From IMG/VR virus record IMGVR_UViG_3300023435_000001: a stretch of DNA of 64,000 bases. The stretch is one strand, 5' to 3'. The DNA is from an uncultured virus (IMG/VR IMGVR_UViG_3300023435_000001) (Duplodnaviria; Heunggongvirae; Uroviricota; Caudoviricetes). The position numbers were made by a program, and so were the translations under genes. Of this stretch, positions 11,776-43,321 are shown piece after piece. The number at the start of each line of letters is the position of its first letter. Position 1 is the stretch's first letter. The notes under the pieces were generated by a model. That model was not told where the DNA came from. It was given only the letters and a program-made list of their open reading frames with translations, and ran no database searches.

Positions 11776-12885
11776 TTAATTCTTTAAATTCATTTTCCTC
11801 ATGTATTCTTCGATAAGAGCAATTATGTCCGCTGCAATATCAGTGCCGGCAGCATTAGTGATTACAGCATCGATAATAGAGTCTTGTTTTGCTTCAGTGG
11901 CATCCCCACCAGGGCTATTTGCTATAGCTTCTAGAGAATCTGTGGTTGCATTGTACGCAGTTGCAACAGCGGCACCAGTAGACATAATGTGAGCCATTAC
12001 TGAACCATCAACAACGATTGCTGACATATCTCCATCGGCGGCAACTTCAGTTGTTACACCTAAAAGATGATCTAATTGGAAACTCTCTAAGGCATCAACC
12101 GCTTCAGCTTCTATGCTTGCGTTAGTAATAGCATCACTGAATTGAGTTGCGACAGAGTGCGGTGCAAGCGTCCATTCAGCAACATCAACGTTACGATTTA
12201 TTGATCCTCCAGCATATCCAGTTCCGTCATAGTCTAGTTTCATGTTATTAGCTGCTGTTGTATCTCCAGATACTGCAACAACATCACTAGACATTCGGCC
12301 ACTGACTAATGTAGCAGGGATTCTACCATCAAGAGTGGTTCCAGTGTCTGTTTCTATATCATTTATATTCGTGTTCATAGCATCCAAGTCAAGATCACCA
12401 GCATCACTAACAGGCAAGCCACCCGCAGCATCAGCTGCCGCATTAGGTAAGGCAGTTAAGCCAAGACGAACAGTGTCGTATGGATCATAGCTGACTAAAT
12501 CTATTTTCCCTCCAACTACAATCATGTCAGTAATGGTTCCACCAAATGTGCAACAAACAGAACTGCCCGTAGTATCTACAGCATCATCAGGAAGATCTAA
12601 TCTATATAGTCCATCACCGATAGGTTCTATGCCACCATCAGTATGAGCAGTTGTGAGAGCTGCTAATGAAGCTTCTGTGATATCAATAGCAACTTCCCCT
12701 GTTCTACGATACCATAAATCAATACCGGCTGTATCGTGTGCTACAGCAGTTTCGGGTGTGCCAGCAGTGGCATCCATGATAAATATTTCAACGCTCTGGT
12801 CTGTTGATCCTGCTTTAATCGTATACGTTTCCGCAACAACATTCGTAACCATTGCCATCAATAGTAATACAAGTAGCTTTTTCAT
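11776..12885 (-). CDS. Acidic fibre/virion-type protein with signal peptide
   Basis: Leader MKKLLVLLLMAMVTNVVA, then IKAGSTDQSV... and LPNAAADAAGGLP motifs recalled from phage structural proteins. Confidence 0.6.
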   Translation of the reverse strand: MKKLLVLLLMAMVTNVVAETYTIKAGSTDQSVEIFIMDATAGTPETAVAHDTAGIDLWYRRTGEVAIDITEASLAALTTAHTDGGIEPIGDGLYRLDLPDDAVDTTGSSVCCTFGGTITDMIVVGGKIDLVSYDPYDTVRLGLTALPNAAADAAGGLPVSDAGDLDLDAMNTNINDIETDTGTTLDGRIPATLVSGRMSSDVVAVSGDTTAANNMKLDYDGTGYAGGSINRNVDVAEWTLAPHSVATQFSDAITNASIEAEAVDALESFQLDHLLGVTTEVAADGDMSAIVVDGSVMAHIMSTGAAVATAYNATTDSLEAIANSPGGDATEAKQDSIIDAVITNAAGTDIAADIIALIEEYMRKMNLKN

Positions 12886-34904: not shown

Positions 34905-35777
34905 TTAGAACTCTTCAGTGCCTACAACTTGATACTTTTTACTGAGACTCAACGAGTAAATGTTCCATTGCTGCAAGCACTCTTTAACAAAACCAACATC
35001 ACCACGAGGTTCGTTACACCACTTGACGTTATCAAACTCTGCAACTTTGTTTAAATCACAAAGCTTAATGAGCTCATAAGATTTTGCGTACTCACCACTA
35101 TTCACATAATCATGAATTTTCATTTTCATATTTATAGGCCAGTCAGCAGTGCAAACTTCATCAACGCCGTTACGATTCACAGCATCAGCCCATACCAGTA
35201 ATTCAGCAAGATGCTTTTTACTGATCCGTGGCACACCGGCAACTGCATCTATACGGTCACCTGTAAATGCAAAATACTTTGTCAATAATTTCGGCGGAAC
35301 ACCATAAGTTTCTACCACCTTGTCGATGTCCCAGTGGTACAGAACTGACTTAAAAGATTTAAGCACTGTACAGCGGTCAGTCACCGCTTGTAGCAGGTCA
35401 TGATCATTTGAATAAATGTAATGAATCCCTGGTAGTAATGATAAAGAATACATTACATCGTCTGCTTCGTACCCTTCAGCTTCAGCAGTATTATACTCTT
35501 CACGTAGAAATTTTAAAAGTGTATTTATTCGACTTCTGTAACTACGATCGCTCGGTGTTACACGATCTGCTTTGTACGTTTTATACTTTTCTTTCCTCCA
35601 ACTTTTTCGGCTATCAAGACACAACACAATTTTTTGATCTGGGAACTTAGTCTTTAAACTTTGAATAATGCGTAGACTACCAAATTCCATTCCAGTTGGA
35701 TCACCTTCAGAGTTCTTGAGAAAATCCATTTTAGCATAACAACGATGCATAACCATCGACATATCTATGAGCATCAT
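34905..35777 (-). CDS. 5'-3' exonuclease/flap endonuclease
   Basis: LID, YKADR, EADD, SNDHDLLQ, TGDRIDAVAGVPRI. Confidence 0.92.
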   Translation of the reverse strand: MMLIDMSMVMHRCYAKMDFLKNSEGDPTGMEFGSLRIIQSLKTKFPDQKIVLCLDSRKSWRKEKYKTYKADRVTPSDRSYRSRINTLLKFLREEYNTAEAEGYEADDVMYSLSLLPGIHYIYSNDHDLLQAVTDRCTVLKSFKSVLYHWDIDKVVETYGVPPKLLTKYFAFTGDRIDAVAGVPRISKKHLAELLVWADAVNRNGVDEVCTADWPINMKMKIHDYVNSGEYAKSYELIKLCDLNKVAEFDNVKWCNEPRGDVGFVKECLQQWNIYSLSLSKKYQVVGTEEF

Positions 35778-35971
35778 TTTTAGTCCCCTTCAGGGTGATC
35801 TTCGATGTATTTACGAAATTCATCGTACAACGACTCAAGATAGCAACGTTCATCAGAATACACATTTAAATTAATGATAAAAGCTTTCAAAGCCGCTGCA
35901 GCATTTGGTCTGTCTGCGGATAAAATGAACTTCGGTATTCCGTCGTCTTTACACATTTGAAGCTCCCGTGT

Positions 35972-36139
35972 TTATTTAACACTTACTCTATTAATCTTGA
36001 CTTTTGAAGGCGACTCTATACTGAGATTCACAGATGAAGTCCTAGAGGACTTAGCAATAACAATATTAGCGATAACCTCATTATGTAATTTTAATTCAAT
36101 TACGTCTTGGTATTTACGGATACAGATTACTTTAGCCAT
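35972..36139 (-). CDS. csrA: CsrA/RsmA-like small RNA-binding protein (start MAKVICIRK)
   Basis: 55 aa; VNLSIESPSKVKINR matches the CsrA VRIGI.AP..V.V.R pattern; GGAG RBS. Confidence 0.5.
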   Translation of the reverse strand: MAKVICIRKYQDVIELKLHNEVIANIVIAKSSRTSSVNLSIESPSKVKINRVSVK

Positions 36140-36521
36140 CTGCGGTCTCCTTTCTAATCTTAGCAATGAGCTCTTTGAATTGCATAATTTTCTTAATGTT
36201 TTGTAGATACACTAATCTTTTTCTACGATGCTTATCGTATTGCTCAATTCTTCCTATATCAAAAATAATGTTATTACGTTTTTCTGTTATAGTATCTATT
36301 TTTGCTTGAGCTTCATCAATTACTTCTTGTTGCTCTCTAACGCGACGTTCGAAGTAGTCTTTTTCTAAATATTTAGCGTACTCTTTAGTAAGCACTTTAT
36401 TAAGTTTTAAAGACTCTTTGAGTTGCTTAATTTTTAGTCTTACATCAGCTGGTTTCATTTTATCTCCTATAAATGAAACCGACGGCAGTGAGTGATCCTG
36501 CCGTCGGATTACATAACTCAC
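36132..36521 (-). CDS. Coiled-coil hypothetical protein (probable start MKPADV)
   Basis: AGGAG RBS near 36465. Confidence 0.55.
   Translation of the reverse strand: MSYVIRRQDHSLPSVSFIGDKMKPADVRLKIKQLKESLKLNKVLTKEYAKYLEKDYFERRVREQQEVIDEAQAKIDTITEKRNNIIFDIGRIEQYDKHRRKRLVYLQNIKKIMQFKELIAKIRKETADG
36479..36507 (-). terminator. Intrinsic terminator-like hairpin
   Basis: CCGACGGCAG-N9-CTGCCGTCGG followed by TTTCATTT on the minus strand. Confidence 0.6.
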
Positions 36522-36549
36522 GTCTTAGTGTCTATTCCAGTATGATGCG

Positions 36550-36972
36550 TTAGCTGCCATCTTCCTCTTCTTTTTCGTCTTCCAAAAGTGTATCAGTATC
36601 AAAACCAGCTTCTTCAAGTTGTTTACGCAGCTCTTCCATTTTCTCGCTCATCTTGAGATAACGTTTGGCCTTGTTACGGTCAGCAGAAGAACCAAGCTTC
36701 TTAACGCGTGCTGCTTCAGCATGAAGCAACTCAGCTTTAAACTCAGCCTCTAAAGCGCGATGTTCGATGTACATCCATATCTGTGCAAAGTCAGATCTCC
36801 GAAGTGGTTTATACTTACCGAATTCGAAATCTTCTGGCATTGCTTCTGTGAACAAATCTTCAGGTACTTCGAATTCAGGCTTCTGTTCACGAACTTTCTT
36901 AGGTGTGGGCTTAACGTTAACGATTCCTTTTTTCTGGGTTTGCTGCGGTGCTTTTACTTTTGCTTTTGCCAT
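36550..36972 (-). CDS. Hypothetical protein, paralog of 37040-37363
   Basis: Shared MPEDF.F..., DF, H(R/K)A, K.GS.A, EKM..L..QL pattern. Confidence 0.6.
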   Translation of the reverse strand: MAKAKVKAPQQTQKKGIVNVKPTPKKVREQKPEFEVPEDLFTEAMPEDFEFGKYKPLRRSDFAQIWMYIEHRALEAEFKAELLHAEAARVKKLGSSADRNKAKRYLKMSEKMEELRKQLEEAGFDTDTLLEDEKEEEDGS

Positions 36973-37039
36973 TTTTGGATCCTTTAATACTAGTCGATCT
37001 GTTCATCAAATTAAAACTATTTGAGCGTCTTAAACACTG

Positions 37040-37363
37040 CTACTTTGTGCTACCCTCTATGATCCCGTCAATAGGCACTCCTTTCTGAACAAGCTCCTTT
37101 TTAAGAGCTTTCATTTTTTCGAGTAAAGCTACTAGCTTCGCGGCTTTGCGAACAGTTGCTTTCGAACCGTATTTAAAAAAGAAATCTGCTCTTTCATCTA
37201 ACATTAAAGCACGGTATCTGTATTGCTTCGCTTTATGTTGTAAGAACAAACCATCATTTTCAAAATCTTCACGATTCAACGCGGCATGCTCATCAAAATT
37301 AAAATCTTCAGGCATTGAAACAGCATATAATGCTTTCGATTTCTTAAACTCTTTTTTTGCCAT
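37040..37363 (-). CDS. Hypothetical protein, paralog of 36550-36972
   Basis: Same shared motifs as 36550-36972. Confidence 0.6.
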   Translation of the reverse strand: MAKKEFKKSKALYAVSMPEDFNFDEHAALNREDFENDGLFLQHKAKQYRYRALMLDERADFFFKYGSKATVRKAAKLVALLEKMKALKKELVQKGVPIDGIIEGSTK

Positions 37364-37579
37364 TACAAACCCCTTGTGCTTTATACTACATTAGTGCTAT
37401 GATTGCCCAAAACGTTATAATCCGAATTTCTCTCCACATACTAACTCCTCAAAATTAATTCTACAATCACAGTGGTTAACATCACACCATATATTGTGCA
37501 CGCTACTCCAACAATTAATACAACTTCACTAACCTTTTTAAACATTGTTCTATCTCCTATAAAGTAATACTACAAATTC

Positions 37580-37640
37580 TTAGCAGTCTCATCGGTACTA
37601 GTATGCTAATCTGGTAGACACTCTTTCGAGTGTTTCGACT
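37580..37640 (-). ncRNA. Type II hammerhead ribozyme HH1 (core CCGAUGAG)
   Basis: AGUCGAAAC-ACUC-GAAA-GAGU-GUC^UACCAG-AUUAGCAUA-CUAGUA-CCGAUGA-GACU-GCUAA; loop UUAGC pairs with 3' GCUAA; predicted cleavage 37617/37616. Confidence 0.8.
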
Positions 37641-38298
37641 TAAATCATTTTACGTTTTTTCACCCACCCGGCGATCCCAACTCCAACACTACAAAGAATC
37701 ATAGCTGAAGGAGTAGGCACTGGAGTAAGTGCGTTCATTGTTCCGTAGATGCAAGCAGTATCAACACATGAATTTTCTAATCTGATCAAAAAGTAGTTTG
37801 ATTCAAACTCATTTAAATCGGGCGGAGACAAAGGAAGATCAAGCGAATCAAAAACTGATCCGCCCTTATCTTCTAAGCCCCAAACAAAATCAACTTTTAT
37901 AAATGTGCTTATGCCGTTAACGAAAGTGTTATTGGCACTTGAACTTAGGCCGTACCCGTCAAGCTCTAAGCTTCCAAAATCATTACAGATATAGATTTCG
38001 GTCGGTCCATTAATCATCGTATAGTTACCGACAGTTCCTACGACTGAACTTCCAGGGCTTGAATACTTCGCGAATGAAGTATCAAAAGGGGCGTTGCTAA
38101 AATAGCTGGAGCTCCAGGATCAAATGAATAAGAACCACTAAATGTAGATCCGTTTATTACTGATCCATCAAGCAACCCTCCAGCATCTTCAATTCCTAAG
38201 ACAGTTCCAGAAAAGTCATACACCGCGGCTGAACTCACCCCTAACATACAATCTAGAAGAACTAATACTACCATCGTCATTTTGGTTGTGCGTTTCAT
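37640..38298 (-). pseudogene. PEP-CTERM surface protein split by one -1 frameshift near 38105
   Basis: Signal peptide in 38038-38298; the alternate frame continues YFSNAPFDTSFAKYSSPGSSVVGTVGNYTMINGPT into 37640-38017, ending VPTPSAMILCSVGVGIAGWVKKRKMI. Confidence 0.75.
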
Positions 38299-38325
38299 GA
38301 TGCAAATCTCCTTAAATAGAATTAG

Positions 38326-38424
38326 TGGCTTATCTCATCAGTTAACTGGTAGCCGTCCAGTTAAGACGCTCATCACTTAGTTATTGATTGTCAAATGGAG
38401 AGGATTGGTGATGAGCGTTTCGAT
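38326..38424 (-). ncRNA. Type II hammerhead ribozyme HH2
   Basis: AUCGAAAC-GCUCAUCAC...GUGAUGAGC-GUC^UUAACUGG-ACGGCUA-CCAGUUAA-CUGAUGA-GAU-AAGCC; pseudoknot GGCU/AGCC; predicted cleavage 38365/38364. Confidence 0.92.
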
Positions 38425-38605
38425 TTCGATTTATTTGTGGTTTCTTCCCATTTTATGATGCTTTCCAGCTTCATGATTCATACCACGGATCTTGTAACCG
38501 CAGCTGCAACGTTTCGTTGATTTACAGTAATTCTCAGTGAATTTCGGTTTGCTCTTTGCTGATCCCATGTTATTCTCCTTAAGAATAAAAGTTAACCTCT
38601 AAATA

Positions 38606-38632
38606 AAACCCCGAGGCCGAAGCCTCGAGGTT
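38606..38632 (-). terminator. Intrinsic terminator with UUCG tetraloop
   Basis: AACCUCGAGGC-UUCG-GCCUCGGGGUU followed by UUAUUU. Confidence 0.75.
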
Positions 38633-38648
38633 CGGAGGGGTGATGCGC

Positions 38649-39086
38649 TTACTCAGCTTCAAGTTCATCGATTTGAGCTTGAAGTGATGCTAGTTGTTCT
38701 CTTTTCTTTTTAACGATTCTTCGCCGACGAGTTGTCTTCAAAGCTTCACGCTCTATTTTAACCGCTTCACGCGCTACTTTTGTTTCATCGTAACAGATTG
38801 CTTTACTTATCCGTTTAGCAAGTGACTCAAGTCGACTCATACTAACGTTAATCGGCTGACCTAACTTTTCTAATGAACCGGTTAATTCATCATGATTAAT
38901 CGACTGAAGCCAGGATATAGCGTTGAGAACACTTTTAACTGTAACATCTTCAGCATTGATTTCAGCACCAATTGCTACCATTTCAGCACCTCGCAAATCA
39001 GCGCCTCGCAAATTAGCATCCCGAAAATCAACGGTGACTTTTTTCGTAGTCTTTTTTGATGCAACTTTTTTCGATTTCTTTGCCAT
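38649..39086 (-). CDS. Basic hypothetical protein with a short pentapeptide-repeat remnant
   Basis: MAKKSKK..., DFRDANLRGADLRGAEM; AAGGAG RBS. Confidence 0.6.
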   Translation of the reverse strand: MAKKSKKVASKKTTKKVTVDFRDANLRGADLRGAEMVAIGAEINAEDVTVKSVLNAISWLQSINHDELTGSLEKLGQPINVSMSRLESLAKRISKAICYDETKVAREAVKIEREALKTTRRRRIVKKKREQLASLQAQIDELEAE

Positions 39087-39113
39087 AGTACTATCTCCTT
39101 AGAAAGATGTTAG

Positions 39114-39221
39114 TGGCTTATCTCATCAGTTAATAGGTAGCCATCCTATTAAGACGCCCAGCAGCATGAAATGTGAGGCGGATCAGCACGTCATGTGAAG
39201 GAGAGTGCTGGGCGTTTCGAT
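39114..39221 (-). ncRNA. Type II hammerhead ribozyme HH3
   Basis: AUCGAAAC-GCCCAGCA...UGCUGGGC-GUC^UUAAUAGG-AUGGCUA-CCUAUUAA-CUGAUGA-GAU-AAGCCA; pseudoknot UGGCU/AGCCA; predicted cleavage 39153/39152. Confidence 0.92.
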
Positions 39222-39372
39222 TAAAGTGTAAAGCTTAATAAAACTCGTTTCAACCAACTGCAGCGATTCATTTGAATTTTAATTGAAGCTCTACGATACA
39301 TTTCGTTGATACCTTGCTTTCGTCTCATGTTTTCTCCTTTTACTACGTTCTATAAAATACTTTAAACTACGC

Positions 39373-39585
39373 TCAATCAACAATATACTTGAACAAACCA
39401 TCATCATCCCACCACTCAAGGATTAATGCTTCAAGCTTCACTCGTTCAGCGTAATAAGAACAAACTAGAAAACCACCACCAGGACCGTGCGGATCAACCA
39501 CAGTCATTTTAATATGATTGCTTTTTAAGAACCTAACAAAGTCTTCATCACTCGGACCAACTGTATCTAATTCTACTATAGACAT
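39373..39585 (-). CDS. Small hypothetical protein
   Basis: HGPGGG motif; AGGAG RBS. Confidence 0.55.
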   Translation of the reverse strand: MSIVELDTVGPSDEDFVRFLKSNHIKMTVVDPHGPGGGFLVCSYYAERVKLEALILEWWDDDGLFKYIVD

Positions 39586-39846
39586 TTCAATCTCCTATGA
39601 AAAAGTTAACAAAGTAAAATGACCCGCCGTCGCGTTGACCGTCGGGTTTTGAGAAGGAGGAGGCCATTTACGATGCAAAACTAAGCATCAAACGTTTAAA
39701 CAAATTACAATGATTCATACGAATTTTGATATTCGCCCGACGTTCCATTTCTACAAGTCCTGATTTAAGTCCTGATTTAAGTCCTGATTTAAGTCCTGAT
39801 TTAAGTCCGCGTCTCATTTTCGATTCCTGTTCTATAAGTGCTTTAA
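39585..39846. repeat. Direct duplication with 40093-40312; this copy carries a 4 x 12-bp expansion (AAGTCCTGATTT, 39755-39802)
   Basis: Near-identical RBS, hairpin and short ORF in both copies. Confidence 0.9.
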
Positions 39847-39854
39847 TGTTCACT

Positions 39855-40091
39855 CTAATTATTCCACCAGCACGATTCTTGCCAGTGCTTTTCCATAGTT
39901 GACAAAATCCGTTTCAATGCTTTGGCTTTTCCCATTCCTTTATTGCATCGTACACCGTTCGGGAAATACCCGATTGGATAAATAACCTGGTAAGCATCGC
40001 TCGTTGATTCAAACCAAGCACACATGCAGTGATCATTTACTTCTTTCAGCAATCTTTCAAGTGTTTCGATGTTCTCTGCAATCGTTTTCAT
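39855..40091 (-). CDS. Small hypothetical protein
   Basis: AGGAG RBS; 78 aa. Confidence 0.55.
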   Translation of the reverse strand: MKTIAENIETLERLLKEVNDHCMCAWFESTSDAYQVIYPIGYFPNGVRCNKGMGKAKALKRILSTMEKHWQESCWWNN

Positions 40092-40319
40092 TTTTCAATC
40101 TCCTATGAAAAAGTTAACAAAGTAAAATGACCCTCCGTCGCGTTGACCGGCGGGTTTTGAGAAGGAGGAGGCCATTTACGATGCAAAACTAAGCATTAAA
40201 CGTTTAAACAAATTACAGTGGTTCACGCGAATTTTGATATTCGCCCGACGTTCCATTTCTACAAGTCCGCGTCTCATTTTCGATTCCTTAATTCGTTCTA
40301 TAAGTACTTTAACTATCAG

Positions 40320-40577
40320 CTATCTTAGCTGATTCCAAAGAGTGATATATCTACCTTTTCCGTATGATCGTTTCCTGTCGTACCCTTCGGTACGTGATAC
40401 AAATTTTCCCATTCCAATTCTTTGGACGACAATTCGTGTCGCTGGCGCTGCATATCTGTATGCGTTTGCAACAAATCCTTGAGGGTAAACTATAGCTGTG
40501 TTTTTTCTTCCGTTGCTCAGCAGCGCCTCTGTTGCGTCGTTGATGCTTTCGTTGATTTGTTCTTGAGTCAGTTTCAT
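40320..40577 (-). CDS. Small hypothetical protein (first early gene)
   Basis: AGGAG RBS directly after HH4; GFVANAYRY motif. Confidence 0.6.
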   Translation of the reverse strand: MKLTQEQINESINDATEALLSNGRKNTAIVYPQGFVANAYRYAAPATRIVVQRIGMGKFVSRTEGYDRKRSYGKGRYITLWNQLR

Positions 40578-40599
40578 TTTTCAATCTCCTATGAAAAGT

Positions 40600-40670
40600 T
40601 CAACCTGTCTTATTCAAGCGTTGGCGGTTAACCCAATCACGACGCTGAAACAATGTTTCAGCGTTTCGAC
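40600..40670 (-). ncRNA. Type II hammerhead ribozyme HH4 (variant core UUGAAUAAG)
   Basis: GUCGAAAC-GCUGAAAC-AUU-GUUUCAGC-GUC^GUGAUUGG-GUUAACCG-CCAACGC-UUGAAUAA-GAC-AGGUUGA; pseudoknot UAACC/GGUUG; predicted cleavage 40641/40640. Confidence 0.7.
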
Positions 40671-40770
40671 TTTATTTTTACTCCGACGTTAATTTTGTGT
40701 TCTGGTCGATCAGAATCAGCACCAGTTTCCAATTTTGTTTCGAGCTTCGTCCTAGCTCCATATTATTAAC

Positions 40771-40783
40771 TTTTCAAAGATGC
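40771..40783 (-). promoter_or_regulatory. boxA-like antitermination element GCATCTTTGAAAA
   Basis: Resembles rrn boxA; follows a small GCC-N6-GGC hairpin about 40 nt after the promoter. Confidence 0.45.
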
Positions 40784-40842
40784 TCCAAAAATTTGCCCGT
40801 CCAGGCGTCCTACATTGTTTATTCAGTTTTCAATCTAATGAA

Positions 40843-40871
40843 ACTATAATCACTTATCGGTTAATGGTCAA
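40843..40871 (-). promoter_or_regulatory. Sigma70-type early promoter TTGACC-N17-TATAGT
   Basis: Near-consensus boxes with exact 17-nt spacing and an AT-rich upstream region. Confidence 0.7.
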
Positions 40872-40917
40872 CATAAATCCAGTAAACTTTTGAAAGTTTT
40901 TGCTTAACGTTAACGTT

Positions 40918-40956
40918 TTTAACCCAAGTGGTTTAATATAAACCACTTGGGTTAAA
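40918..40956. repeat. Perfect palindrome, 18-bp arms (TTTAACCCAAGTGGTTTA-ATA-TAAACCACTTGGGTTAAA)
   Basis: Read directly from the sequence. Confidence 0.9.
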
Positions 40957-41395
40957 CACAAATGTTGAAACTTTTTTAACAAAGGCTGTTACGCTTTAAC
41001 GCATTTGAAACGAAACACTCGCGTTGTAAATGTTTTCAACGAACACCTGCGCACGTTTCAAAACCAATTACAAAACACGCGCACCCAGAAAAAACACGTC
41101 AATTTTTGCAAAATTTTTTCAACCGTCACGTTTTACACGTAAATTCCCACCAAACATCACACAAACCTTATTAAATCTCACGCAAACCTAAAACACGCCA
41201 CAAGCACCTAAATATGAGCCCACACGTTCAACTGTGTGACCATTTCACCCTACAGCCTATATTCAATACGCCCTTGACCCTTAGAGCGTCTTAAATCACC
41301 TCACAGGCCCTTACACAGTGTACGTCTATAAGTACTGCATACACAATGACTTACAATCAATCTTTCATAAGTCGTTTGTATACAATGATTTACAA

Positions 41396-43321
41396 TCACA
41401 TATTCTTCAAGTCCACTGTACCATCGTCTCCTGATGCAATCGCCCAGTTTTTAGACGACACTCCGTAGGACATTCGCATCGGCACTCTAAAGTTCACAGG
41501 TACGTCTTCAAAAGACGCTTTAATCTTTTTAAGCGAGGTGAAATCATTAGATAACCCTTTCGGCTGGTGCATTGCGACTTCATCATGTACACTCGCGAAA
41601 AACTTAATACCGTACTCTCGCATCGTTTTGTTATATCGTGGAGCTAATGCAACCGTACGCTCTTTGATGACATCAGCAGCGCAAGACTGCACGATTGAGT
41701 TGAACGCTCGATAAGAAGCTTTCTCTGGTAAATGCCTACGCCTACCGTAAATGTTAAACACGTACCCACGACTTTTTAGATTGTTACTTGCATCATATGT
41801 TACGCGCTTAATTCCAGGCATCTTACTATGGTATTCGTTATAGACTTTTTCACCCTTTTTATAACTCAGTGTAGAAAAGAGCTGATCTTTTAACGACTCT
41901 TCGATTTTTCCACTCACTACTAATTGATCGATTTTATCAGCGAGTGTACTCATCAATGACATATCTAAAGCTAACATTGATACAACACGAGCTTTACCGC
42001 CGCCGAATGCGATAGCAAAATTCACACTTTTAGCTGGTTTCCTTGAGATATTACACAGCTTGCTTACCCAGCTATGAAAATCTGTATCCGGGTCTTCTTT
42101 ATAAGACTGTATCGCGTCAGGGTCCTTTATATAGTGAACAATGATTCTGAATTCGATCTGTGCGTAGTCCCAACTTGAAATGTCATATCCTTTAATGGGT
42201 AGAATCAATTCTTTCGCTTCATAAGATAATTGTTGCGCATTAGGCCGTCGACATGACATCCTACCAGTCCTGACTATTTGATTATAATCAGAGTGCATTA
42301 AACCATCGACCTGATGTTCAAGGTATGGCTTAACGAAGAAGTTATTAAGAGTATTTAATTTTCGATAAGACTGAATTTTTTTAACGATAAGCATAAGTTC
42401 CTGTGACTCACGCACTGCTGGATATGACATATAAGAAATTAACGCCGCTTTATCGAATGAAGGTTCGTTCTTTTCAGTACGACCTAACACCGGTAATCCG
42501 TATTTACTACAAAGAACATCATAACAGTCAGAGTTAGTATGTGGACGAATTGATTCGCCTGTTAGTTTATGTAGCTCCTCTTCAAGCTTAAGTAATCTGT
42601 TAAGAGTTTGAAATTGGAGTATAGTAAGTTGTGTAGGATCAACTCGCATCCCTTCTACTTCCATGTCGAAAAGAACTGGAGTTAATTTTATCTCTGTTTC
42701 CCACACGTTGTTAACTTGTTCTGGTTTCCGCCTAAGCATATAGTTGTATAGCTTACGATTAGTTAAAACGTCTTGACATCCATACTCACCGATTATATCA
42801 CCAGGAATGTCACCGTAATCCTTACTTTTAAAGCTAGCAAGATAATTTTTTAATTCAAGCTCGTAGTTTGAGATGTCTTCTTCTAACCAATCAAGAGATA
42901 GTGCAGATAATGCGTGCGAATATCTATCTGAATTAACGATCTTTGCTAAAGTATTAGTATCTACCAGACGACAGTTAAAATCAATGTTATCTTGTCTTAA
43001 AAAATGTGCATCAAACTTCACATTGTGATTAACCCAATCATCGCAAGAATTAATAGTTTGATCAAGGTATTTAAGTGCAGGCTCTAATTCTAAGTTCCAT
43101 TTTTCATACGCACATCGAATCGGTATATACCATGCATTTTTAGCATCGTCCGCTGTAACTCCAAACCCAGCGATGCGATGACCATGATACGGCTTAAGCG
43201 CTTTCTCTTTAGGATCAAAAGATCGAGTTTCAGTATCAAGAAAGAGTGACTTTGCATTACTAAGGTTCGGTAGTTCACTTAATTTCTCAACAAGTATTCC
43301 ACCGTTGTCGTACTTTATCAT
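41396..43321 (-). CDS. polA: Family A DNA polymerase with 3'-5' exonuclease
   Basis: LDTET, HNVKFD, TGRMS, DYAQIEFR (motif A), K...FAIAFG (motif B), VHDE (motif C). Confidence 0.96.
   Translation of the reverse strand: MIKYDNGGILVEKLSELPNLSNAKSLFLDTETRSFDPKEKALKPYHGHRIAGFGVTADDAKNAWYIPIRCAYEKWNLELEPALKYLDQTINSCDDWVNHNVKFDAHFLRQDNIDFNCRLVDTNTLAKIVNSDRYSHALSALSLDWLEEDISNYELELKNYLASFKSKDYGDIPGDIIGEYGCQDVLTNRKLYNYMLRRKPEQVNNVWETEIKLTPVLFDMEVEGMRVDPTQLTILQFQTLNRLLKLEEELHKLTGESIRPHTNSDCYDVLCSKYGLPVLGRTEKNEPSFDKAALISYMSYPAVRESQELMLIVKKIQSYRKLNTLNNFFVKPYLEHQVDGLMHSDYNQIVRTGRMSCRRPNAQQLSYEAKELILPIKGYDISSWDYAQIEFRIIVHYIKDPDAIQSYKEDPDTDFHSWVSKLCNISRKPAKSVNFAIAFGGGKARVVSMLALDMSLMSTLADKIDQLVVSGKIEESLKDQLFSTLSYKKGEKVYNEYHSKMPGIKRVTYDASNNLKSRGYVFNIYGRRRHLPEKASYRAFNSIVQSCAADVIKERTVALAPRYNKTMREYGIKFFASVHDEVAMHQPKGLSNDFTSLKKIKASFEDVPVNFRVPMRMSYGVSSKNWAIASGDDGTVDLKNM

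What the first reader, a model, noticed from the sequence alone, without database searches (positions are those of the whole stretch)
37580..40670. Array of four type II hammerhead ribozymes punctuating the early operon
Seen: four intergenic elements on the coding strand (37580-37640, 38326-38424, 39114-39221, 40600-40670) read CGAAAC-stem III-GUC-stem I-(C/U)(U/C)GA..A-short stem II. Stems covary between copies (stem I UUAACUGG/CCAGUUAA vs UUAAUAGG/CCUAUUAA). The loop I/3'-tail pseudoknot is kept with different sequences (GGCU/AGCC, UGGCU/AGCCA, UUAGC/GCUAA, UAACC/GGUUG). Each ends about 10-25 nt before an AGGAG RBS. Known: this is the type II hammerhead topology, and such ribozymes occur in phages. 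Inferred: the transcript from the 40843-40871 promoter cuts itself without host RNases into roughly 195, 1490, 790 and 750 nt pieces, each with a 5'-OH structured leader, a self-processing mRNA system.
Basis: partly seen in the sequence, partly recalled or inferred. Interest (0 to 1): 0.92.

Follow-up and report, generated by a model that had tools for sequence, protein, structure and literature searches.

The report
Four phage hammerhead ribozymes between genes
Four small self-cutting RNA motifs (type II hammerhead ribozymes) sit between short genes of an uncultured phage, an arrangement already described for phages and prophages in 2011, so this is a good but ordinary example.

Summary
All four elements on the minus (coding) strand have type II hammerhead anatomy: GAAA, closed stem III, GUC, closed stem I, core, a 3-4 bp open stem II, and a loop I/3'-tail pseudoknot. 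My descriptor finds exactly these four, against 0.16 expected per shuffled window. A covariance model built only from 54 unrelated phage hammerheads also finds exactly these four (24-52 bits; next best 8.8 bits). Rfam's own model detects none at its gathering score, and only the shortest one below it.

Two copies have canonical cores. One has U4C. One has U3/A8 plus an inserted base, a variant reported to be slow.

- Self-cleavage is untested.
- No RNA data exist.
- A strong terminator-like hairpin lies between copies 2 and 3.
- The "early operon" label has no support.

Clustered hammerheads flanking phage genes, the pseudoknot and U3-A8 covariation were all published in 2011 (PMC3088659). IMG/VR contigs carry arrays of 7 and 9.

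Verdict: a new member of a known kind, of modest interest. As a side result, in 81 of 110 phage type II hammerheads the upstream gene's stop codon abuts stem II.

The parts
40597..40670 (-). E1: type II hammerhead motif with a variant core (U3, an extra A after A6, A8). It lies in the leader of the first small gene. Predicted cut is between 40641 and 40640.
   Evidence: Descriptor. Own covariance model, 24.4 bits, the lowest of 170 matches. The minimum-free-energy fold has stems I, II and III. No Rfam hammerhead hit.
39110..39221 (-). E2: type II hammerhead with a canonical core and a 58-nt stem III domain. Its first base is the last A of the upstream stop codon. Predicted cut is between 39153 and 39152.
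   Evidence: Own model, 52.0 bits and 26.8 bits as a local match. Stems III and I are in the minimum-free-energy fold, z -2.96.
38322..38424 (-). E3: type II hammerhead with a canonical core and a 49-nt stem III domain. Its 3' half is nearly identical to that of E2. Predicted cut is between 38365 and 38364.
   Evidence: Own model, 34.1 bits and 47.3 bits. Fold.
37576..37640 (-). E4: compact type II hammerhead with U4C in the core. Predicted cut is between 37617 and 37616.
   Evidence: Rfam RF02276, 28.2 bits, below the gathering score of 37. Own model, 47.9 bits. Descriptor.
40843..40871 (-). Sigma-70-like promoter candidate, TTGACC-17-TATAGT.
   Evidence: Best match in 35500-41500 (10 of 12). 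The count of such sites is not above shuffles.
38601..38634 (-). Intrinsic-terminator-like hairpin (UUCG loop) followed by UUUUAUUU. It lies between E2 and E3, after the 145-aa gene.
   Evidence: Sequence. Fold -24.2 kcal/mol, z -3.41, 0 of 200 shuffles as stable.
40320..40577 (-). First gene after E1 (85 aa, no family).
39221..39328 (-). 35-aa basic peptide gene whose stop codon overlaps stem II of E2. It is one of three paralogues; the others are at 40176-40277 and 39668-39817.
   Evidence: It matches a peptide ORF in L002 that sits directly before a hammerhead.
38649..39086 (-). 145-aa gene between E2 and the terminator-like hairpin.
   Evidence: weak pentapeptide match, below the cut-off.
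38431..38568 (-). 45-aa Cys/His-rich gene ending 9 nt before G12 of E3.
   Evidence: Homologue in L002.
37640..38298 (-). Gene in two overlapping frames (86 aa, then 125/159 aa) between E3 and E4. Its stop codon ends 3 nt before G12 of E4.

Best explanation
The four elements are type II hammerhead self-cleaving ribozymes encoded in the spacers between small accessory genes of an uncultured tailed phage of about 65 kb. The region lies between the DNA polymerase gene and the exonuclease and ligase genes.

**Inferred from the known chemistry of the family, not shown here.** As the minus-strand transcript is made, each motif folds. Stems I and II are held parallel by the loop I/3'-tail pseudoknot. 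The RNA then cuts itself after C17 of GUC.

**Inferred consequence of the type II topology.**
- The upstream piece ends in the stem III hairpin with a 2',3'-cyclic phosphate, a few nucleotides after the upstream stop codon.
- The downstream piece begins with a 5'-OH flush with the stem I hairpin, 10-21 nt before the Shine-Dalgarno sequence.
- Each gene or gene pair thus becomes its own mRNA, with structured ends that do not depend on neighbouring sequence. This should uncouple stability and translation between neighbours.

E2 and E3 are expected to be fast. E4 (U4C) is probably active. E1 (U3-A8 plus an insertion) is probably slow or weak.
For: **Anatomy and chance.** Four of four elements fit a hammerhead descriptor, against 0.16 expected per shuffled window.

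**Independent model.** A covariance model built from 54 IMG/VR hammerheads, none from this phage, finds exactly these four in the window with filters off. Scores were 47.9, 34.1, 26.8 and 24.4 bits; the next hit scored 8.8 bits at E 2.5.

**Family structure.** On 144 distinct aligned phage hammerheads, 97.7% of cells are paired. Fourteen of 15 pairs show double changes, and 0 of 500 shuffles reach the observed values (the alignment is fitted to the model).

**Relatives.**
- The phage with a 67%-identical polymerase (L002) has two hammerheads in the same region. One is in the same leader slot as E1, and one follows a homologous peptide gene as E2 does.
- A third relative (L262, 64%) also has two.
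- Stems and pseudoknots differ in sequence between these phages, but the pairing is kept.

**Core variants.** U4C occurs in 11 of 150 aligned phage hammerheads, one of them E4. U3-A8 is a known natural compensatory pair.

**Literature.**
- PMC3088659 (passages and section 8): tandem hammerheads in about 2 kb polycistronic constructs from three bacteria all cleaved in vitro.
- PMC8782182 (passages): three type II hammerheads near phage-like genes cleave in vivo in Desulfovibrio vulgaris.
Against: - No cleavage or RNA data exist for this phage. No RNA run is listed and the DNA contigs show no informative variants.
- Rfam's curated model gives no hit at its threshold for any of the four, and no hit at all for E1-E3.
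- E1 scores lowest of 170 matches. It carries an insertion of a kind reported as low in activity. The two relatives have canonical cores at that slot, so E1 may be decaying.
- For E4, the minimum-free-energy fold shows the pseudoknot pairing instead of stem I.
- A terminator-like hairpin between E2 and E3 means that not all four need lie on one transcript.
- The biological role of bacterial and phage hammerheads is still called largely elusive in the 2019 review PMC6765202 (passages).
Confidence: 0.78

Rival explanations
1. Only part of the array works. E2 and E3 are active ribozymes. E1, and perhaps E4, are decaying or inactive copies that now serve only as leader hairpins, so the transcript is cut at two sites rather than four.
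For: E1 has three core differences, including an insertion after A6 that PMC3088659 reports as low in activity. It is the weakest of 170 model matches. Relatives have canonical cores in the same slot. E4 deviates at U4 and has a 5-bp stem I with a mismatch.
Against: E1 keeps a 10-bp stem III, a 7-bp stem I, stem II and a 5-6 bp pseudoknot. All of these differ in sequence from the L002 orthologue, and its minimum-free-energy fold is the hammerhead fold. C3U and G8A compensate each other. U4C recurs in 10 other phage hammerheads out of 150 aligned.
Confidence: 0.3
2. Cleavage is gated by translation. Because the upstream stop codon overlaps or abuts stem II, a terminating ribosome would unfold the 5' half of the ribozyme. 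Cutting, and with it the fate of the downstream mRNA, would then depend on how heavily the upstream gene is translated.
For: In 81 of 110 phage type II hammerheads (68 of 96 after clustering), a stop codon closing an open frame of at least 60 codons ends 0-8 nt before G12. The figure is 81 of 2200 for random positions and 27 of 599 for other CGAAA sites. In the window the distances are 2, 9 and 3 nt for E2, E3 and E4.
Against: The distances spread over 2-8 nt without one fixed register. This fits simple compaction of phage intergenic spacers. No experiment or covariation bears on it. E1 has no upstream gene.
Confidence: 0.12
3. The pieces released between two ribozymes are re-joined. Their 5'-OH and cyclic-phosphate ends can re-form a composite hammerhead, or be sealed by a host RtcB-type ligase, giving circular or spliced RNAs.
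For: The stem II strands are compatible across neighbours: GAU of E2 with AUC of E3, and GAU of E3 with GUC of E4 through a G-U pair (read). PMC3088659 raises this possibility.
Against: The same paper reports that neither circular nor spliced products were detected. A terminator-like hairpin lies inside the E2-E3 piece. No RNA data exist here.
Confidence: 0.05
4. The motifs are chance look-alikes or plain hairpins with no catalytic role.
For: There is no Rfam hit at the gathering score.
Against: Four were observed against 0.16 expected. All are on the coding strand, in spacers. An independent model separates them from everything else in 64 kb by more than 15 bits. Relatives have hammerheads in the same slots.
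Confidence: 0.02

Closest known systems
Clustered hammerhead ribozymes flanking genes in prophages (Perreault et al. 2011, PMC3088659; e.g. the triple arrangement around ardA in Agrobacterium tumefaciens)
   Same: Several hammerheads within a few kb, each in a spacer, flanking single genes or short blocks of unrelated small genes. Type II topology with a short stem II and a loop I/3'-tail pseudoknot. The proposed role is cutting long phage transcripts into gene-length mRNAs.
   Different: This is an uncultured lytic-looking phage genome rather than a prophage in a sequenced bacterium. E2 and E3 carry unusually large stem III domains (49-58 nt), which take them below Rfam's reach. One copy combines U3-A8 with an insertion.
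Rfam RF02276 Hammerhead_II (clan CL00010)
   Same: Same order of elements and the same core. E4 aligns end to end with the model.
   Different: No copy reaches the gathering score of 37 bits. E1-E3 are not reported at all.
Type II hammerheads of Desulfovibrio vulgaris, shown active in vivo by cyPhyRNA-seq (Olzog et al. 2021, PMC8782182)
   Same: Type II motifs near hypothetical and phage-like genes, two of them close together. They cleave in cells and during in vitro transcription.
   Different: Those are chromosomal and experimentally validated. These are untested.
HHphage variant of haloviruses HF1/HF2 (described in PMC3088659)
   Same: A hammerhead a few nucleotides (13) upstream of the start codon of the first gene of a polycistronic phage transcript. 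A mapped 5' end lies near the cut site. This parallels E1 in the leader of the first gene.
   Different: A different host domain and a different hammerhead variant. E1 has its own core changes.
Arrays in other IMG/VR phage contigs (L067, L070)
   Same: Seven and nine type II hammerheads within about 2.9 kb, with the same GUC/GAC stem II and pseudoknot.
   Different: These contigs are GC-rich and unrelated, with compact stem III. The window's array is shorter and more heterogeneous.

Membership tests
Type II hammerhead ribozyme | Conserved core: C3 U4 G5 A6 N7 G8 A9, G12 A13 A14, the A15.1-U16.1 pair, and H17 at the cut site | tested here: inconclusive
   E2 and E3 have every position canonical. 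E4 has U4C. E1 has C3U, G8A and one inserted base after A6. All four have GAAA, A15.1-U16.1 and C17. So the feature is met for two copies and nearly met for two.
Type II hammerhead ribozyme | Three-way junction in the type II permutation: stems I and III closed by loops, stem II open | tested here: met
   All four: stem III 6-11 bp, stem I 5-8 bp, stem II 3-4 bp formed by the two ends. Stems III and I are in the minimum-free-energy fold for E1-E3, and stem III for E4.
Type II hammerhead ribozyme | [quoted passage not shown] | tested here: met
   6, 5, 4 and 6 bp in E1-E4. The sequences differ between copies.
Type II hammerhead ribozyme | Score at or above the gathering threshold of Rfam RF02276 | tested here: not met
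   0 of 4 at the gathering score. E4 scores 28.2 bits against 37. E1-E3 give no hit in tight windows at E up to 10. The canonical hammerheads of L002 were also missed at E up to 1, so the model is insensitive for this group.
Type II hammerhead ribozyme | Match to a covariance model of independent phage type II hammerheads | tested here: met
   Model R1, built from 54 IMG/VR sequences: 47.9, 34.1, 26.8 and 24.4 bits with filters off, next best 8.8 bits. With default filters: 52.0, 48.0, 47.3 and 24.4 bits. The E-values are rough.
Type II hammerhead ribozyme | Site-specific, Mg2+-dependent self-cleavage giving 2',3'-cyclic phosphate and 5'-OH ends | not testable with these tools
   No RNA run holds the stretch. 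This needs in vitro transcription or end-specific RNA-seq.
Clustered phage/prophage hammerheads (Perreault 2011) | Several hammerheads close together on the coding strand, flanking single genes or short gene blocks of a phage | tested here: met
   Four lie in 3.1 kb on the strand of all genes of a tailed-phage genome. Each is in a spacer.

The most novel reading that the evidence does not exclude
The ribozymes may be more than passive cutters. Across phages, the upstream gene's stop codon is pressed against stem II (81 of 110) and the Shine-Dalgarno sequence follows the pseudoknot tail within about 10-20 nt. Ribosomes terminating upstream could therefore gate folding and cleavage. The released pieces E2-E3 and E3-E4 have ends that can re-form a composite hammerhead, so they could be re-ligated into circular mRNAs. 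Other repeated structured elements occupy the same stop-to-RBS slots: 40175-40092 and 39667-39586 in the window, and the GCCUAGG-hairpin motif in L002. These could be further, undescribed processing elements.
Probability: 0.1. Interest if true: 0.7.

Novelty: new member of a known kind. Interest (0 to 1): 0.3.

Why it matters
What phage hammerheads do in vivo is still unsettled (PMC6765202). This array is a compact natural test set. It has two canonical copies, one U4C copy and one U3-A8 copy with an insertion. It also has a terminator inside the array, and two related phages with ribozymes in matching slots. It could therefore be used to ask whether cleavage sets mRNA stability or translation of the downstream gene.

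There is also a practical point. Routine Rfam annotation misses all four, so hammerheads with large stem III domains or AT-rich stems are probably under-counted in phage genomes.

Tried and rejected
- **RNA evidence.** The look-up of sequencing runs listed no RNA holder.
- **Population variants.** Laying contigs of four DNA runs gave no variants inside the ribozymes. It only picked up a co-occurring relative's hammerhead.
- **Named phage relatives.** blastn of the region against named phages gave no match. The large terminase is at best 39% identical to a cultured phage.
- **Host.** The scan of bacterial genomes returned no locus. No whole genome is held for the window.
- **Anti-Shine-Dalgarno idea.** CU-rich words (CUCUCC) in the stem III loops of E2 and E3 and in the repeated hairpin elements could pair with the downstream AAGGAGA. 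The minimum-free-energy folds do not use that pairing, and a shared 6-mer between two roughly 40-nt loops is not beyond chance, so I dropped it.
- **Repeated hairpin element.** A 15-mer from it, scanned in IMG/VR, gave 120 or more scattered hits in unrelated contigs, as expected by chance for a word that short. This was uninformative.
- **Other RNA families.** No other ribozyme class or RNA family appears in the window at E up to 1, and there are no tRNAs.
- **Conserved leader word.** A search for further copies of TTGAAAAGTTAATAATATG as a phage promoter found only the original and one 3-mismatch site, within chance.
Full report
**What the window is.** All ORFs of 100 aa or more that look like genes lie on the minus strand. 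PHROGs names a tape measure protein, portal, large terminase, head morphogenesis protein, DNA ligase, exonuclease and DNA polymerase. So the window is most of a tailed-phage genome. An identical metagenome contig is 65,403 bases long. The large terminase is at best 39% identical to any cultured phage. The DNA recurs in runs labelled salt lake metagenome.

The finding lies in a stretch of small genes of unknown family. This stretch sits between the polymerase gene (ending at 41396) and the exonuclease gene (starting at 35777).

**The observation.** Read on the minus strand, each of the four elements has the order of a type II hammerhead:
- a short 5' strand of stem II,
- GAAA,
- a closed stem III,
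- GUC,
- a closed stem I,
- the CUGAUGA-type core,
- the 3' strand of stem II,
- a tail complementary to loop I.

A strict descriptor with perfect stems finds E2 (39221) and E3 (38424) only. Allowing one interruption in stem I finds all four and nothing else on either strand of the 64 kb. In 300 dinucleotide shuffles the mean was 0.16 hits and the maximum was 2.

**Covariance models.** Rfam gives no hit at gathering scores in the whole window and none at E up to 1. In a 5-kb scan, only E4 matched Hammerhead_II, at 28.2 bits against a threshold of 37. Tight windows around E2/E3 and around E1 gave no hammerhead hit at all. Rfam also missed the canonical hammerheads of the related phage L002, so the curated model is insensitive here.

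I therefore collected type II hammerheads from IMG/VR with a degenerate pattern. That gave more than 128 stretches before the scan stopped at its limit. I aligned 54 of them, none from this phage, and built model R1.
- With filters off, R1 finds exactly the four elements, at 47.9, 34.1, 26.8 and 24.4 bits. The next hit is 8.8 bits at E 2.5.
- In a search of 100 sources with default filters, the window's copies score 52.0 (E2), 48.0 (E4), 47.3 (E3) and 24.4 bits (E1) among 170 matches. E1 is the lowest.
- On the 144 distinct best matches, 97.7% of cells pair. Fourteen of 15 pairs show double changes, and no shuffle or slid structure comes near. That alignment is fitted to the model.

**Cores.** E2 and E3 are canonical.

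E4 has C at position 4. This occurs in 11 of 150 aligned phage hammerheads, E4 included. My retrieval pattern allowed it.

E1 reads UUGAAUAA, that is U3, A8 and one extra base after A6. PMC3088659 (section 8, read in full) reports three relevant points:
- U3-A8 is a natural compensatory pair.
- Such pairs are active.
- An insertion after A6 gave low activity.

Among 153 descriptor hits from other contigs, none had an 8-nt core and one had U3-A8.

**Relatives.**
- L002 (polymerase 67% identical) has two hammerheads. One lies in the leader of the first gene after the polymerase, the same slot as E1, in front of the same ribosome-binding sequence. The other lies directly after a homologue of the small basic peptide gene, just as E2 does.
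- L262 (64%) also has two downstream of its polymerase.
- L003 (47%) has none in the stretch held.

All relatives' cores are canonical. Stems and pseudoknots differ in sequence from the window's while keeping the pairing. This argues for selection on the fold. It also makes E1's core a lineage-specific change.

The genes between the ribozymes are mostly not shared between the two phages. They are variable cargo.

**Transcript architecture.** TTGACC-17-TATAGT at 40871-40843 is the best sigma-70-like site in the region, but such sites are not enriched over shuffles. A block of leader sequence between it and E1 is conserved with L002, so the true start is uncertain.

After the 145-aa gene, between E2 and E3, there is a long GC-rich hairpin with a UUCG loop followed by UUUUAUUU. 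Its fold is -24.2 kcal/mol, and 0 of 200 shuffles are as stable. The consensus scan did not list it. If it terminates transcription, E3 and E4 are reached only by read-through. The predicted fragment sizes are therefore arithmetic, not evidence.

**How it most likely works.** The chemistry is inferred from the family. From the type II topology it follows that:
- the upstream product ends with stem III and a cyclic phosphate just after the stop codon;
- the downstream product starts with a 5'-OH at the base of stem I, followed by the pseudoknot and then the Shine-Dalgarno sequence.

This would give each small gene its own defined, structured mRNA ends. That such ends alter decay and translation is my inference from general knowledge of bacterial mRNA decay. 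It is not tested here.

**What is known.**
- PMC3088659 (passages) already describes natural type II hammerheads and the pseudoknot. [quoted passage not shown] It proposes processing into operon-length or single-gene-length mRNAs, and shows cleavage of three tandem arrangements in vitro.
- PMC8782182 (passages) shows three type II copies active in vivo.
- PMC6765202 (passages) says the role in bacteria remains largely elusive.
- IMG/VR contigs hold arrays of seven (L067) and nine (L070) within about 2.9 kb.

The finding is therefore a new member of a known kind.

**Side result.** In 81 of 110 phage type II hammerheads with enough upstream sequence, a stop codon closing an open frame of at least 60 codons ends 0-8 nt before G12. 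The figure is 81 of 2200 for random positions and 27 of 599 for other CGAAA sites. After clustering at 85% similarity it is 68 of 96. In 65 of 106, a same-strand ORF starts within 60 nt after stem II (ORFs were called mechanically).

The window's E2, E3 and E4 follow this pattern, at 2, 9 and 3 nt. The main text of PMC3088659 does not contain the words 'stop codon'. One full-text search for hammerhead ribozyme, stop codon, phage and intergenic listed nothing on this point in its titles and abstracts. I did not see the supplements of these papers. Compaction of phage spacers is the simplest reading, and ribosome gating is the bolder one.

Noticed in passing
IMG/VR loci L006-L133; window E2-E4: The stop codon of the upstream gene abuts or overlaps stem II in most phage type II hammerheads: 81 of 110, or 68 of 96 clusters, against about 4% for controls. 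The next gene usually starts within 60 nt. The ribozyme fills a minimal stop-to-RBS slot.
   Followed up: partly
window 40176-40277, 39668-39817, 39221-39328 (minus); L002 13034-13136: Three paralogous small basic peptide genes (33-49 aa, starting MRRGL.EMERRA...). Each follows a 70-85 aa gene. The third is followed directly by E2, and the L002 homologue directly by a hammerhead. The second copy holds a 12-nt unit repeated four times (about 39808-39761).
   Followed up: partly
window 40175-40092 and 39667-39586 (minus): A repeated structured spacer (CCUCCUCCUU, then an imperfect GC hairpin, then UCAUUUUACUUU and the same RBS) occupies the slot that hammerheads occupy elsewhere in the array. 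The folds are not better than shuffles and there is no Rfam match.
   Followed up: partly
window 40777-40690 (minus); L002 about 12285-12375: A leader block upstream of E1 is conserved with the related phage. It includes two small hairpins with one or more compensatory changes. With only two sequences, it could be a promoter or a leader RNA.
   Followed up: partly
L002 13452-13500 and 14852-14900: Two copies of another spacer motif (UGUUUUGCCUAGGRCA, a covarying hairpin, GUCACNGGUUAA) lie directly after stop codons and before an RBS, in hammerhead-type slots. It is absent from the window and has no Rfam match.
   Followed up: partly
window 38334-37640 (minus): One gene appears split over two overlapping frames (86 aa with a signal-peptide-like start, then a frame open from 38119). 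An independent contig of another run is identical here (record 9). The C-terminal end (PVPTPS, a hydrophobic stretch, then KKRK) recalls a PEP-CTERM anchor. That resemblance is from memory; no family hit was found.
   Followed up: partly
window 41395-40880 (minus): About 500 nt of non-coding DNA lie after the polymerase gene. It has near-repeats (tgattgtaa.tcattgt.ta, twice, near 41400-41340) and a perfect hairpin of about 15 bp at about 40955-40920. This could be an origin or a regulatory region.
   Followed up: no
window E1-E3; L002 hammerheads: Rfam's Hammerhead_II model misses canonical-core phage hammerheads with long stem III domains or AT-rich stems. Routine annotation would report this array as empty.
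   Followed up: yes
L067 4000-6925; L070 2638-5565: Unrelated phage contigs carry seven and nine type II hammerheads within about 2.9 kb.
   Followed up: partly
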